Positions 5,374 to 21,192 of a DNA stretch of 64,000 nucleotides are shown here, piece by piece. The position numbers and the translations under genes were made by a program. Source of the DNA: the human T2T-CHM13v2.0 reference genome, Homo sapiens. Under the pieces are notes generated by a model, which was not told the DNA's origin, ran no database searches, and saw only the letters and a program-made list of their open reading frames with translations. Location of the stretch: NCBI RefSeq assembly GCF_009914755.1, contig NC_060947.1; one strand, 5' to 3'. The stretch's first letter is position 1, and each line of letters opens with the position of its first letter.

Positions 5374-8300
5374 GTTAATTGTATCCGTGAGTTTCTGTAG
5401 GTATGCCGGAAGATGTTGTATGCCCAGCTATGGCAGTTACCTGGGCAGTTTGTGGATAGCCATGTAACAGATGTTAGGTTTTCAAACCTTATGAAGACCA
5501 TGGGTTTTTGCAGGTATTCAGGTAAGAGATGGTATGTCACAAAGCACTATTGTGACCAAGGTGGTTTTGCCAGTATCCAGTCAAAAGCTGATGGTAAACC
5601 TAAAGTGAATATGGGATTTTGGAGTTATCCCATAGATGATAATGGTGACTTGCACCATAGTAGTGCCCGTTGGAATTTCAGATGTCCTATAAAAATAATG
5701 TCTCTCTAATTATGCTTGTCAGCATGGTTTTAGTAAGTAAATAAAGGTGAAATTTACCACAGCACTAAACAGAAGATTTGGCAGGTAACTGGGAGAGAAA
5801 TAACATGGGCTTTAACCGAATGGACACCATGGGATTTTGGAACTGTCTGGCTAAGTTATCATGATGTCACTGACCACAATAATAGCCATAGAATTTTGTA
5901 GGTTCCAGTCAATAGATGACAATAAAACTCACAGTGGCAATGAAGATGGGACTTTGCTGGTATCCTAGTTAGAGATTATGTGGACCTGAAAAACATGAGT
6001 GACCAAATGATCTTCAGACATCTAGAAAACTGATGATGATGTCCTGAACTCTTTTCTTATCCATGTGTTTTTACAGGTGTTCAGGTAAGAAATGTATGTG
6101 CCTAACAAAAGTAGTAACCATTAGATTTTACTGTTTTCTAGTTCAGAGACAATCTTTCTCAAACTTAGTAGTGACAAAGATATTAGCAGGTATCCGGGTA
6201 AGATATCACAGAGTTCCTCACCACAGTAGTAACTATGGGATTTTTGCAGGAGTCCAGTGAACAGACAGTGTGTGAAACTACTATGTTGACCTTGGACTTC
6301 TCTTGAGTGTCCAAGTACACTTAGTGGTTGCCCTAATGATTATAGTGAGTGTATGCATGGAATTATCAGGGGTCCAGATGGAAGGACATGTATCCTGACC
6401 AGGGTTGCCACCATATGTTTTCTCAGCAGGTAGTCAAGAGATGATGGTGTCTCTAACTACAACATTGGCCTCAGAACCTTAGGATTCAGGTAGAGTTCAT
6501 GGTTCCCCTAACAATACTAGTCACCATGGGATTTTTTGAGGTGCGTATAGAAGATGTATCCCTAACCACTACTGCTGCCATATGGTTTTGCAAGCTCCTA
6601 TCAAGAGATAATGGTGAAACTCATATTAGTCATTTTTGTAGGAATTTCATGGAATCTAGCTAAGTGATTATGTGGACCTTAAACACAGTACAGACCATCT
6701 GCTCTTCAGACATCGAGGTAAGTGACGATGATGTCCTCAACATGTGTTGGTATCATGTGTTTTGCAGGTATTCGGGTAAAAAAAAATGATACGGGCTCTA
6801 CCAATAAGTATTGGAATCCATGAGCTTTAGCTTAACCAGTTTTCTAGTTTAGAGATATTGTGTGTTTAACTTTAGGAGTGAATGAGGGATTTTCAGGTAT
6901 CTAGGCAAGTGATCATAACTTTCTTCACCACAGTAATGACCTTGAGATTTTTATAGATGCCCAGACAATAAATGACGGTGCCTGTACCAATGTGTTGACC
7001 TTCAGGTTCTGCCAATATCCAGGTAGCATTAATGGGTTTGTAAAGATGGAAGTGACAAAAGTTATTTGCAGATGTTCTGCTAGAAAAAGTTGCATTCTTA
7101 AACACATCTGTCACAATATGTTTTTTCAGGTTTCAGTCTAAAGATCAAGGTAACCCTAACAACGGGGATTAACATGGAGCTTTGCTGGTATCCAGGCAAG
7201 TGATGATGTGGGTCTTATCACACGGTAGACATTGTGACCTTCAGAAGTTTACATAAGTGATGATGATACCTCTAACATTTGTGTTACCGTGTTTTTTTGG
7301 GTTTTTGCAGATATTCAGGTAAGAAATTATAGTGTTCCCATAATTCCTATTTAATAATACACCCTTGCTGCTTACTAGTGCAGAGATAATGTTTTGAAAT
7401 CTGGCTATGACTGAGGGATTTGTAAGTTTCCAAGTAAATTATCGTACTGTTTCTCATCTCAGTATTGACTATGGTATTTTTACAGGTACCCAGTCAAGAG
7501 ATTATGACATATCCATGGTTTTGACCTGGATATTCTGCAAGTATCAAGGTAAAGTTGATGGTTCTCCTACTGCTAGTGATTCTCATGAGATGTGTCATGG
7601 TCTAAATAGAAAAAGACGTATCTCTAACCATGGGCTGCCTTTATGGGTTTTTTAGGTGCTGTCAGTGGATGGTGGTGAAACTAACAATGATAGTGAACAT
7701 GGACTTAGCTAAAAGAGAGGGAAAAGATGGTGTGAGCCTTTACACTTTGGAGAGCTTCAGATTTCAGTTATCTCGGTAAGCGTTGATGGTGCCTGTAATA
7801 CTGTGGTTACAAGAATGTTGTTTTTATCAAGAGGCATTCAGGTAAGGTCAGTGCTAATATAAAGGTGAGAAACCATGTGGCATTTATACACTAGAGACCT
7901 GAATTTCAGATATCTGGGAAATTGATGATGGTGATCATAACTGTAATAGTTACCTGGTTTGGTACAGGTTTGCAGGGAAGAAATGAACTTGCTCCCCTAG
8001 TAAGAGTAAGCATGAGATTTAAAAAAAAATTTTAGTGACAATTTGTACTTAACCCTAGTAGCAGTTGAGAAACCTGCAGGTATCCAGGTAAGATATCACA
8101 CTGTCTGTCACCCCACTAGTGACCATGGGATTTTTGCAGGTATTTCTTCAAAGGAGAGAGGTGTCTTTATTAGGGTTTAACTTCACACCTCTGGAACTAT
8201 CGATGTAGCATTGATGAGTCACAAAAAGAAGTGATCAAGGGTATTTGCAGGTGTCCAGGTATTATAAGAGGTGTATGCTTTTCAGGTTCCTTTCATGAGA

Positions 8301-20509: not shown

Positions 20510-21192
20510 AGATCTTCATATATCTAAGTAAGTGTTATACATTTACCTAAACTTTTTTACTGTGTGATTTTTTTCCATAGGTACTCAAGTAAGAAATGAT
20601 AGTCTTTACTAACTACAGCAACCATGTTATCCTGCTGTTTTATATTTTAGAGAAAATTTATGTTTAACTTTGTGATTGGCGAGCTATTTGCTATCCAAGG
20701 AATTAACCATGGAGTTGCATGTCATAGTAGCAATTGTGGGTTTGTTTGCAGGTAAGTAGTAGAGAGAAAATGGTATCTGTAACAGTGCTATAGACCTTGC
20801 AGTACTGCAAGATTCCAGGTATACTTGATGGTTCTTGGAATGATGGTAGTGAATAAGCTTAATTGTGGGGTTCAAGGAAAAAAGCTGTGTCTACACACAT
20901 TTGTCATAATGTGTTTTTAGGATCCTGTCAAGAAGACATGGTAAACCTCATCATGATCAAGAATGAGACTTTGCTTGCATCCAGGTAAGTAATGACGTGG
21001 GCCTTAAGCAAGCACTCAGAAAACAATCTGATCATCAGATCTATAATTAAGTGTGGATGGTGCTTCTAACTTTTGTGTTACCATGGTTTTTTTGCAGGCA
21101 TTCAGTTAAGAAATGATGTTTTCCCAACCAAGGCTAGTAAGCATTAGCCCTTATTATTTTACAGTTTAGATATAATGTGTAGTATCTAACCA

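What the first reader, a model, noticed from the sequence alone, without database searches (positions are those of the whole stretch)
7130..20984. One 61-66-nt exon-like cassette per ~510-bp unit: candidate many-exon repetitive lncRNA
Seen: each higher-order unit has TGTGTTTTTCAG|GTTCCTGTCAAGAGA...CATGGGACATTGCTGGTATCCAG|GTAAGTGATG. Measured blocks: 7130-7195 (66 nt, GC donor), 9450-9515 (66), 10445-10509 (65), 10966-11031 (66), 20095-20159 (65, GC donor), 20921-20984 (64), and also 446-506 (61). Intervening ~450-600-nt segments are a normal intron size. Lengths are not consistently multiples of three, arguing against coding. Inference: the layout parallels tandem exon/intron small-RNA host arrays such as SNHG14 or C19MC. 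I recall lncRNA annotations near ATXN3L (GS1-600G8.3, LINC01203) but cannot verify their exons.
Basis: partly seen in the sequence, partly recalled or inferred. Interest (0 to 1): 0.78.

Follow-up and report, generated by a model that had tools for sequence, protein, structure and literature searches.

The report
Old tandem repeat supplying lncRNA exons
The exon-like blocks are real: they come from an old tandem repeat on human Xp22.2 whose basic 58-bp unit carries splice-site motifs, and two testis lncRNAs already use such blocks as exons, with no sign of small-RNA cargo, coding capacity or selection.

Summary
All 7 listed blocks sit at the stated coordinates with AG acceptors and GT or GC donors.

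They belong to a single-locus array on the + strand, from about window -3832 to 22628. It has three tiers: a ~58-bp monomer, a ~510-bp unit of 9 monomers, and blocks of ~1.15 kb and ~2.7 kb.

The monomer core reads TTTGCAG|GTATCCAG|GTAAGT, so both splice motifs are built into the repeat. The cassette runs from the acceptor of monomer 1 to the donor of monomer 2.

"Each unit" is overstated. Only 12 of 32 units in the window keep both sites, and 9 of 23 inside 7130-20984.

Two blocks are RefSeq exons: GS1-600G8.3 437-506 and LINC01203 20921-20984. GS1-600G8.3 already averages about one exon per unit.

The SNHG14/C19MC analogy fails:
- Rfam finds only sub-threshold matches, 19 of 21 Alu-type, none recurring per unit.
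- There is no hairpin excess.
- There is no coding signal.

Cassettes are no better conserved than the "introns".

Most likely this is neutral exonisation of a decaying repeat. Whether the middle 15 kb is transcribed was not testable here.

The parts
1..22628 (+). Window part of the tandem array (continues upstream to about window -3832). Units of ~510 bp, each made of nine ~58-bp monomers, all head-to-tail on the + strand.
   Evidence: nhmmer: 56 of 56 hits on + and 14 of 14 upstream hits on +. Monomer alignment and autocorrelation peaks at 57-59, 115-117 and 515. Three whole-genome DNA searches hit only chrX:12,893,144-12,918,173.
437..506 (+).
   Evidence: Hub annotation. Start maps to unit-model position 4 and end to 78. 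Donor score 8.7.
7130..7195 (+). Intact cassette, 66 nt, GC donor.
   Evidence: Acceptor 5.4, donor GCAAGT 6.0.
8286..8350 (+).
   Evidence: Acceptor 4.7, donor 9.6.
9450..9515 (+). Intact cassette, 66 nt.
   Evidence: Acceptor 3.3, donor 6.9.
10445..10509 (+). Intact cassette, 65 nt.
   Evidence: Acceptor 4.7, donor 12.6.
10966..11031 (+). Intact cassette, 66 nt.
   Evidence: Acceptor 3.7, donor 12.6.
12039..12101 (+).
   Evidence: Acceptor 2.6, donor 7.7.
14203..14263 (+). Intact cassette, 61 nt. It is the paralogue (78% unit identity) of the annotated exon 437-506.
   Evidence: Acceptor 6.8, donor 8.7. Unit 14191-14692 best matches unit 435-932.
17925..17985 (+).
   Evidence: Acceptor 2.2, donor 9.6.
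20095..20159 (+).
   Evidence: Acceptor 1.1. GT donor after 20151 scores 6.1. The GC donor at 20159 carries the CAG|GCAAGT 9-mer, which scores 6.0.
20921..20984 (+). Cassette used as LINC01203 exon 2.
   Evidence: Hub annotation. Maps to unit-model positions 13 and 78. Acceptor 2.2, donor 12.6.
21642..21708 (+). Intact cassette, 67 nt, lying in a LINC01203 intron.
   Evidence: Acceptor 4.7, donor 8.6.
22296..22360 (+). Intact cassette, 65 nt, in the last unit of the array.
   Evidence: Acceptor 3.3, donor 7.8.
7486..7548 (+). Example of a second exon-like cassette type (acceptor of monomer 7 to donor of monomer 8, model positions 359 to 425).
   Evidence: Exon-like pairs of this type, or within a few model positions of it, start at 272, 1169, 2631, 6427/6430, 7486, 14030 and 16268.
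20680..20751 (+). LINC01203 exon 1. Its donor is a monomer 'acceptor-like' TTTGCAG|GTAAGT junction, and its 5' end lies 29 nt after a strong acceptor-like ttttatattttag.
   Evidence: Maps to model positions 286 to 358. Sequence read. Junction 20752 scores acceptor 3.3 and donor 12.6.
21098..21136 (+). LINC01203 exon 3, using the monomer-4 acceptor.
   Evidence: Model positions 189 to 226.
21818..21899 (+). LINC01203 exon 4, using the monomer-4 acceptor and a monomer-3 donor.
   Evidence: Model positions 189 and 132.
964..1050 (+). GS1-600G8.3 exon whose donor is the monomer-6 donor. Its first 60 nt are an 82% copy of the gene's first-exon region.
   Evidence: End maps to model position 307. 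Genome search.
2001..2141 (+). GS1-600G8.3 exon whose donor is the first CAG|GT of monomer 4.
   Evidence: End maps to model position 188.
3289..5417 (.). Insertion block that splits the array: an Alu-like element (about 3360-3634) and the ATXN3 retrocopy (homology to chr14 ATXN3 exons and to the chr8 copy over about 3660-5380, on the - strand).
   Evidence: Gap in array hits. SRP-type Rfam matches. Genome search. Josephin, UIM and SUIM_assoc domains in ORF 4306-5373.
16646..17655 (.). Inserted repeats that interrupt one unit (Alu-like 16647-16926 plus a second masked stretch).
   Evidence: Gap in array hits. Rfam SRP and mir-1268 matches. Hub mask list.
20216..20494 (-). Alu-like insertion inside a unit.
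   Evidence: Rfam SRP matches at 20231-20508 on the - strand. Gap in array hits.
21210..21354 (+). Partial Alu-like insertion inside a unit.
   Evidence: Rfam SRP match at 21194-21341 on +. Gap in array hits.

Best explanation
SHOWN.
- The blocks are one segment of an old tandem array found at a single locus. It is about 26.5 kb long (window -3832 to 22628, all copies on the + strand).
- The array has three tiers: a ~58-bp monomer, a ~510-bp unit of nine monomers, and duplicated blocks of ~1.15 kb, ~2.7 kb (five units) and ~13.7 kb.
- The monomer core reads T-rich tract, CAG|GTATCCAG|GTAAGTGATGATGG. Every monomer was therefore born with a 3'-splice-site-like junction followed 8 nt later by a near-consensus 5' splice site.
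- In the unit ancestor, monomer 1 lost its donor and monomer 2 lost its acceptor AG. That left an acceptor followed 61-67 nt later by a donor, which is the cassette.
- RefSeq transcripts use monomer-born junctions for all 8 donors and 4 of 6 acceptors of their array exons. The cassette itself is used twice.

INFERRED.
- Transcription in testis produces GS1-600G8.3, whose start lies 77 nt before the first repeat. LINC01203 has its first four exons in the last 2 kb of the array.
- The cassettes in the unannotated 5372-20680 stretch are candidate or cryptic exons of read-through or unannotated transcripts of the same kind. Nine of 23 are still intact.
- Nothing points to a function for the exon sequences. 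The cassette looks like neutral exonisation of a decaying repeat.
For: Array and tiers:
- self-similarity of 65-80%, 56 of 56 hits on +.
- seven of nine monomers of the unit consensus are 54-74% alike; autocorrelation peaks at 57-59, 115-117 and 515.
- best partners lie at distances of ~1.15 kb, ~2.7 kb and ~13.7 kb.
- upstream extension, and 84% and 79% copies of 13186-15205.

Single locus: all 7, 12 and 15 matches of three genome-wide DNA searches lie in chrX:12,893,144-12,918,173.

Splice motifs built into the repeat:
- Strong donor-like sites (score >=8) run at 2.74 per kb on array +. The figures are 0.62 on array - and 0.63/0.70 in the rest of the window.
- They recur at fixed unit positions: 78 (19 of 43), 136 (16 of 41), 307 (10 of 33) and 196 (8 of 36).
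- Acceptors recur at 13 (15 of 31), 187-190 (25 of 41), 258-261 (17 of 30) and 359 (12 of 35).
- Exon-like acceptor/donor pairs 55-80 nt apart run at 1.77 per kb on array + against 0.22-0.46 elsewhere.

Use by real transcripts: annotated exon ends map to unit positions 136, 78, 307, 188, 358, 78, 226 and 132. Starts map to 4, 13, 189 and 189.

Testis expression (passages read):
- PMC13010821 says GS1-600G8.3 has 17 exons, is mainly expressed in testis in GTEx, and is uncharacterised.
- PMC12055976 says LINC01203 has no known function and is highly expressed in testis alone.

No constraint:
- The mean consensus fraction is 0.69 in cassette columns and 0.71 in the rest.
- In four paralogue pairs (3,747 aligned positions) the mismatch rates were: donor 9-mers 13.9%, acceptor 15-mers 14.9%, other 16.0%, cassette interior 21.3%.
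Against: - No RNA evidence was available for the 15 kb between the two annotated genes, so the cassettes there may never be spliced.
- Only 12 of 32 units keep both sites. Each unit also offers competing sites, so splicing would be heterogeneous and not 'one cassette per unit'.
- The splice scores rest on recalled approximate weights.
- Columns holding the CAGGTAAG core are somewhat better conserved among units (0.74-0.77 against 0.62-0.70). That could reflect weak selection or only alignment anchoring. The paralogue test saw no significant difference.
- The genome search lists only the best candidates. Very divergent copies elsewhere cannot be excluded.
Confidence: 0.75

Rival explanations
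1. One long testis transcription unit. GS1-600G8.3, the unannotated middle and LINC01203 are pieces of a single many-exon RNA. It starts either at the GS1-600G8.3 start or divergently from the ATXN3L start at 5492. The intact cassettes are its regular exons.
For: - Both flanking lncRNAs are on the + strand and reported as testis-restricted (PMC13010821, PMC12055976, passages read).
- The annotated 3' end of GS1-600G8.3 (5372) has no AATAAA or ATTAAA in the 40 nt before it.
- The 5' end of LINC01203 (20680) is not at an AG. It lies 29 nt after a strong acceptor-like site at 20650, as a 5'-truncated cDNA would.
- The + strand of the array is poor in poly(A) hexamers (0.47 per kb against 1.35 in the rest) and rich in U1-type sites. 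That combination favours read-through.
Against: - RefSeq lists no transcript between 5372 and 20680.
- No RNA data were seen here.
- 14 of 23 cassettes in that stretch have a damaged site.
- cDNA ends without a canonical hexamer are not rare.
Confidence: 0.25
2. One reading: a tandem host-gene array like SNHG14/SNORD116 or C19MC, where each unit's intron delivers a small RNA and the short exons are by-products.
For: The layout fits: short non-coding exon-like cassettes with 450-600 nt between them, on one strand. GS1-600G8.3 averages one exon per unit.
Against: - An Rfam scan of 1-23000 at E<=1 gave 21 matches, none reaching a gathering score.
- Nineteen of them lie in five Alu-like insertions (Metazoa_SRP, mir-1268, mir-3135, mir-1285). 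The other two are weak singletons (mir-1 at 26.2 bits against a threshold of 45.6; DGCR5 at 24.9 against 50). Nothing recurs per unit.
- 90-nt windows with energy <=-30 kcal/mol numbered 5 of 711 and 0 of 164 in the array. Controls gave 17 of 711 and 0 of 355.
- The 'intron' is made of the same monomer as the 'exon'.
Confidence: 0.05
3. Selected RNA-level function of the motif array. A transcript carrying dozens of U1-binding sites and juxtaposed AG|GT junctions is either retained on chromatin through U1 snRNP or removed stepwise by recursive splicing.
For: - 39 juxtaposed acceptor/donor junctions lie on array +. There are 2 on array - and 6 and 10 in the remaining 41 kb.
- At score >=9.5 there are 35 donor-like sites on array +, against 4, 7 and 9.
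- The same monomer junction serves as donor in two annotated exons (2141, 20751) and as acceptor in two others (21098, 21818).
- A U1 recognition motif promotes chromatin retention of noncoding RNA (bioRxiv 10.1101/310433, abstract start seen in the listing).
- Ratchet points are juxtaposed acceptor and donor (PMC8605326, PMC6224609, abstract starts seen in the listing).
Against: - The motifs are inherited from the monomer, so their number needs no selection.
- Donor 9-mers diverge at 13.9% against 16.0% for other positions, Fisher p=0.34.
- There are no RNA, lariat or localisation data.
Confidence: 0.08
4. Remains of a protein-coding gene with many tandemly duplicated ~22-codon exons.
For: The consensus cassette is 66 nt. 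One frame is open in 19 of 32 copies, against 8 and 6 for the other two frames.
Against: - Only 9 of 32 cassettes have lengths divisible by three.
- A chain of the 15 cassettes with a donor >=5 between 7000 and 21000 (939 nt) has a longest ATG ORF of 69 aa.
- The monomer is ~58 bp, and the 'introns' are the same monomer.
- None of the 11 array ORFs of >=80 aa match Pfam, while the ATXN3L control matches Josephin at 2.1e-58.
- The open frame is simply the one without a stop in the inherited consensus.
Confidence: 0.03

Closest known systems
GS1-600G8.3 (NR_046087.1) and LINC01203 (NR_045260.1), the annotated lncRNAs at this locus
   Same: They are the same array and the same splice junctions. 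All 8 donors and 4 of 6 acceptors of their array exons map to recurrent monomer junctions.
   Different: RefSeq covers only the first ~9.3 kb and the last ~2 kb of the array. The finding's stretch between 5372 and 20680 has no transcript model. Neither paper I read describes the repeat structure. PMC13010821 calls the lncRNA unknown and lacking functional characterisation (passages read).
Tandem small-RNA host arrays (SNHG14/SNORD116 host exons, C19MC)
   Same: Head-to-tail units, each offering short non-coding exons bounded by consensus splice sites on one strand.
   Different: No snoRNA or miRNA per unit and no hairpin excess. The spacer is the same monomer as the exon. The features of SNHG14 and C19MC are recalled, not checked here.
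Recursive splice sites (ratchet points, RS-exons)
   Same: A pyrimidine tract and AG directly abutting GTAAGT-like sequence. There are 39 such junctions on the array + strand. One (20751|20752) is a RefSeq donor, and the homologous position is a RefSeq acceptor in other units.
   Different: Known sites lie singly in long introns and are defined by lariat or junction evidence (PMC8605326, PMC6224609, abstract starts seen in the listing). Here they are repeat-borne, and no RNA evidence exists.
X-linked CTCF-binding tandem-repeat lncRNA loci (DXZ4, FIRRE)
   Same: An X-linked local tandem repeat overlapped by lncRNA genes.
   Different: The array has no CTCF core motif. The window has 1 match at <=1 mismatch, at 27405 outside the array, with 0.5 expected by chance (motif recalled). 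Units are far more diverged. Expression is reported as testis-restricted.
Satellites or minisatellites derived from a fragment of an interspersed repeat
   Same: - The majority monomer core of 20 nt is identical to the core of a dispersed family. That family gives 171 genome-wide matches at <=2 mismatches, against 2 for the reversed control.
- The family profile aligns to monomer 7 of the unit over about 80 nt at 18.4 bits.
   Different: - Outside the core the similarity is weak: flank score reached by 127 of 5000 shuffles.
- The best hit in the real array has E about 1e-4 to 1e-5.
- The family was not identified. I recall it as LINE-2-like, which is untested.

Membership tests
Small-RNA host-gene tandem array (SNHG14/SNORD116, C19MC type) | Tandem units each carrying short non-coding exon(s) with splice sites | tested here: met
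   A cassette with both sites is present in 12 of 32 units. Two are RefSeq exons. The feature is met only in part, because 20 of 32 units lack one or both sites.
Small-RNA host-gene tandem array (SNHG14/SNORD116, C19MC type) | A snoRNA or miRNA precursor embedded in the intron of each unit | tested here: not met
   Rfam at E<=1 gave 21 matches, none at gathering score, 19 of them in Alu-like insertions, none per unit. There is no hairpin excess. A family unknown to Rfam cannot be excluded.
Small-RNA host-gene tandem array (SNHG14/SNORD116, C19MC type) | Processed small RNAs detectable from the units | not testable with these tools
   No small-RNA data on hand.
Higher-order tandem repeat (satellite-like array) | Head-to-tail copies on one strand with nested periodicities | tested here: met
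   70 of 70 unit hits are on +. There are nine ~58-bp monomers per ~510-bp unit. Blocks of ~1.15 kb and ~2.7 kb are present.
Higher-order tandem repeat (satellite-like array) | A named repeat family in Dfam or RepeatMasker | not testable with these tools
   No repeat library on hand. The hub's mask list leaves the array unmasked apart from the inserted repeats. TRF reports no array there.
Annotated spliced lncRNA exon | Exon boundaries present in a curated transcript | tested here: met
The other 5 have no model.
Recursive splice sites | Juxtaposed pyrimidine tract, AG and GT(A/G)AGT | tested here: met
   39 junctions on array +, against 2 on array - and 6 and 10 in the rest of the window.
Recursive splice sites | Stepwise intron removal shown by lariats or intermediate junctions | not testable with these tools
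   No RNA data.
CTCF-bound X-linked macrosatellite (DXZ4/FIRRE type) | A CTCF motif in each unit | tested here: not met
   0 matches in the array at <=1 mismatch to a recalled 14-nt core motif.
Protein-coding repeated exons | Frame-preserving exon lengths, an open frame and a recognisable domain | tested here: not met
   9 of 32 lengths are divisible by three and the longest chained ORF is 69 aa. 0 of 11 ORFs match Pfam.

The most novel reading that the evidence does not exclude
The whole ~26.5-kb array is one testis (germ-cell) transcription unit running from the GS1-600G8.3 start, or divergently from the ATXN3L start, through to LINC01203. Its repeat-borne load matters for how the RNA behaves. 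That load is about 60 strong U1 sites, about 40 juxtaposed AG|GT ratchet-like junctions and few poly(A) signals. It would make the RNA a U1-dense, chromatin-retained or recursively spliced molecule, a natural tandem array of recursive splice sites.
Probability: 0.1. Interest if true: 0.6.

Novelty: new member of a known kind. Interest (0 to 1): 0.38.

Why it matters
- It explains the odd gene models of two uncharacterised X-linked testis lncRNAs. GS1-600G8.3 has 17 exons in 9.3 kb. Their exons are cut from a repeat whose monomer was born with both splice motifs.
- It flags about 15 kb between the two genes where further exons, or a joined transcript, may be missing from annotation.
- The array escapes both TRF and the NCBI mask, so it is easily taken for unique sequence.
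- The ATXN3L retrogene sits inside the array and starts in array sequence. That is relevant to how the retrogene acquired testis expression.
- If the RNA is made, the array offers a natural test bed for competing, recursive and U1-dense splice-site arrangements.
- As it stands there is no sign of selection, so the biological weight is modest.

Tried and rejected
- TRF on the whole window found no array in 1-22628 except a 15-bp x2 repeat at 10542. The units are too diverged and the period exceeds 500.
- Rfam scan: nothing per unit.
- Hairpin scan: no excess.
- Coding tests: negative.
- CTCF motif: none in the array.
- Selection tests: no lower divergence in the cassette or at the splice motifs.
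- Genome-wide search for paralogous arrays: none outside the locus.
- The GS1-600G8.3 promoter region is single copy, so no repeated LTR-type promoter was seen.
- Literature. The gene-name searches and the searches for ATXN3L + tandem repeat + lncRNA, repeated exons (0 papers) and macrosatellite + X + testis found no description of this array. Supplements were not opened. Subscription journals are not covered.
- Origin from an interspersed repeat: pursued and left as a lead (identical 20-nt core, weak flanks, family unnamed). No fuller copy of that family lies at either edge of the array.
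Full report
**Observation.** Each follows a pyrimidine-rich ...YAG. Each precedes GTAAGT/GTAACT, or GCAAGT at 7195 and 20159. The two flanking motifs each match 6 times at up to 3 mismatches, always on the + strand, with 0.00 expected from shuffles.

**The array.**
- An iterated nhmmer profile built from one unit finds 56 hits in the window. All are on the + strand and lie between 5 and 22628.
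- I fetched 30 kb upstream. That gave 14 more hits, all on +, reaching back to window -3832 and no further.
- Gaps in the array coincide with insertions:
  - 3289-5417: an Alu-like element plus the ATXN3 retrocopy.
  - 16646-17655.
  - 20216-20494.
  - 21210-21354.
- Three whole-genome DNA searches with different units gave 7, 12 and 15 matches. Every one lies in chrX:12,893,144-12,918,173. The array is therefore single-locus, within the limits of a search that scores only the best candidates.
- TRF does not see it, and the hub's mask list leaves it unmasked.

**Three tiers.**
- The 507-column unit consensus breaks into nine monomers of about 58 bp, starting at model positions 10, 68, 126, 186, 243, 297, 356, 415 and 473.
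- Seven of the nine are 54-74% identical to one another. Monomers 5 and 9 are degenerate.
- Autocorrelation of the raw sequence peaks at lags 57-59, 115-117 and 515.
- Above the unit, best partners lie at about 1.15 kb (7646/8798, 8274/9438) and about 2.7 kb (13186/15932, 19118/21833, 19570/22284). After removing the 1-kb insertion, 14191/17913 also fits the 2.7-kb spacing. Others lie at about 13.7 kb (5-932 against 13733-14692, 78-82% identity).
- The stretch 13186-15205 has an 84% copy at window -2690 to -1323 and a 79% copy at -571 to 967.
- Typical units are only 65-72% identical to their best partner, so the amplification is old (inference).
- The retrocopy inside the array is dated to a haplorrhine ancestor in PMC13010821 (passages read).

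**Why the cassette exists.**
- The monomer core is a T-rich tract followed by CAG|GTATCCAG|GTAAGTGATGATGG. That is an acceptor-like junction with a near-consensus donor 8 nt later.
- In monomer 1 of the unit the donor is lost (GTTCCTGTCAAGAG).
- In monomer 2 the acceptor AG is lost (TTTGCTG).
- The acceptor at model position 13 is therefore followed by the donor at position 78.
- A second cassette of the same build runs from position 359 to 425, across monomers 7 and 8.

**Measured densities.** These use approximate human splice-site weights that I recalled.
- Donor-like sites scoring >=8 number 62 on array + (2.74 per kb). There are 14 on array -, and 26 and 29 in the remaining 41 kb.
- At >=9.5 the counts are 35 against 4, 7 and 9.
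- Simple acceptor counts are not enriched (3.76 against 3.65 per kb).
- Sites recur at fixed unit positions:
  - Donors at 78 (19 of 43), 136 (16 of 41), 307 (10 of 33) and 196 (8 of 36).
  - Acceptors at 13 (15 of 31), 187-190 (25 of 41), 258-261 (17 of 30) and 359 (12 of 35).
- Acceptor/donor pairs 55-80 nt apart number 40 on array + (1.77 per kb), against 5, 19 and 12 elsewhere.

**How many cassettes are intact.**
- Of 32 units that cover the cassette, 20 keep a donor scoring >=5.
- Nine keep an acceptor >=3. The RefSeq-used acceptor at 20921 scores only 2.2.
- With 2.2 as the threshold, 12 of 32 units qualify. Their cassettes start at 446, 7130, 8286, 9450, 10445, 10966, 12039, 14203, 17925, 20921, 21642 and 22296.
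- Inside 7130-20984 the count is 9 of 23.
- Units at 8798 and 9954 have CAA and CAT in place of CAG. The unit at 7646 has no donor.

**Use by real transcripts.**
- Within the array, annotated exon ends map to unit positions 136, 78, 307, 188, 358, 78, 226 and 132. Starts map to 4, 13, 189 and 189. Two starts (964, 2001) fall in unaligned sequence.
- The cassette is used twice (437-506 and 20921-20984), and other monomer junctions are used as often.
- The first CAG|GT of the monomer serves as donor at 2141 and 20751, and as acceptor at 21098 and 21818.
- By the hub table, GS1-600G8.3 has 10 exons between -3909 and -73 and four more up to 2141. That is 14 exons in about 7.2 kb of array, roughly one per unit.
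- GS1-600G8.3 is mainly expressed in testis and uncharacterised (PMC13010821, passages read). LINC01203 is 'highly expressed in testis alone' with no known function (PMC12055976, passage read).

- Rfam at E<=1 over 1-23000 gave 21 matches, none at gathering score.
- Nineteen fall in five Alu-like insertions. The other two are weak singletons. That the named miRNA families are Alu-derived is my recollection.
- Stable 90-nt hairpins are no more frequent than in control stretches.
- Cassette lengths are divisible by three in 9 of 32 units. The longest ORF in a chain of 15 cassettes is 69 aa.
- None of the 11 array ORFs match Pfam, while the ATXN3L control does.
- No CTCF motif lies in the array.

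**Selection.**
- Cassette columns are no better conserved than the rest (0.69 against 0.71).
- In four paralogue pairs the mismatch rates were 13.9% in donor 9-mers, 14.9% in acceptor 15-mers, 16.0% elsewhere and 21.3% in the cassette interior. The cassette interior was higher than 'elsewhere' at p=0.03.
- Nothing indicates constraint.

**Leads that stay open.**
1. The annotated 3' end of GS1-600G8.3 lacks a canonical poly(A) hexamer. The 5' end of LINC01203 lies 29 nt inside what looks like an exon with a strong acceptor. The + strand of the array is poor in poly(A) hexamers (0.47 against 1.35 per kb). The two genes may therefore be fragments of longer transcripts.
2. Juxtaposed acceptor/donor junctions of ratchet-point form number 39 on array +, against 2, 6 and 10 elsewhere.
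3. The 20-nt monomer core gives 171 dispersed matches genome-wide at <=2 mismatches, against 2 for the reversed control.
   - I fetched 16 of those 171 places, chosen from the first listed rows that read CCAGG(T/C)(A/G)AGAGATGATGGTG. They align as one interspersed family.
   - The family's core equals the majority monomer core at 20 of 20 positions.
   - The flanks match only weakly (127 of 5000 shuffles reach the score).
   - The family profile hits monomer 7 at 18.4 bits in the unit consensus. It hits real array copies at E of 1.5e-5, 1.2e-4 and 5e-3.
   - The monomer may descend from a fragment of that element. I put this at about even odds and could not name the family.

**Verdict.** It is the signature of an unmasked, old, three-tier tandem array whose monomer carries both splice motifs. 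The 'many-exon repetitive lncRNA' exists in annotation at the two ends of the array. The small-RNA host analogy is not supported. Transcription and splicing of the middle 15 kb remain untested.

Noticed in passing
window 5381-5578 (ATXN3L 5' UTR and start at 5492, - strand): Homology of the retrocopy to chr14 ATXN3 exons and to the chr8 copy covers only about window 3660-5380. Array hits resume at 5418. The annotated ATXN3L start and much of its 5' UTR therefore lie in array-derived sequence. The retrocopy also extends about 430 bp beyond the annotated 3' end at 4086.
   Followed up: partly
L010 6054-6091 (window about -3946 to -3909): A TATA-like TGATATAATAAAGG lies 27-35 nt upstream of the annotated GS1-600G8.3 start. 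That start is itself 77 nt before the first array hit. The 660 bp around it are single copy in the genome.
   Followed up: partly
window 968-1027: An 82% copy of the GS1-600G8.3 first-exon region (L010 6101-6158) lies inside the annotated exon 964-1050. The array's leading segment is therefore itself duplicated about 4.9 kb downstream.
   Followed up: no
window 2804-3288 and 5418-5874: On both sides of the retrocopy/Alu insertion the array switches to a shorter period of about 155 bp. Only unit positions ~8-200 (monomers 1-3) repeat, three times on each side.
   Followed up: no
genome-wide (G000), e.g. L011-L026: A dispersed interspersed-repeat family shares the 20-nt core CCAGG(T/C)AAGAGATGATGGTG with the array monomer. 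I recall it as LINE-2-like, but it was not identified here.
   Followed up: partly
window 37336-37532: A 98-bp unit repeated twice at 96% matches (TRF score 373), lying just after a masked repeat at 37022-37327.
   Followed up: no
window 7646-8274, 8798-9412, 12534-13164, 15290-15912, 18923-19539, 21629-22253: Six units are about 630 bp long because unit positions ~63-208 are present twice. This marks one unit type within the ~2.7-kb blocks.
   Followed up: no
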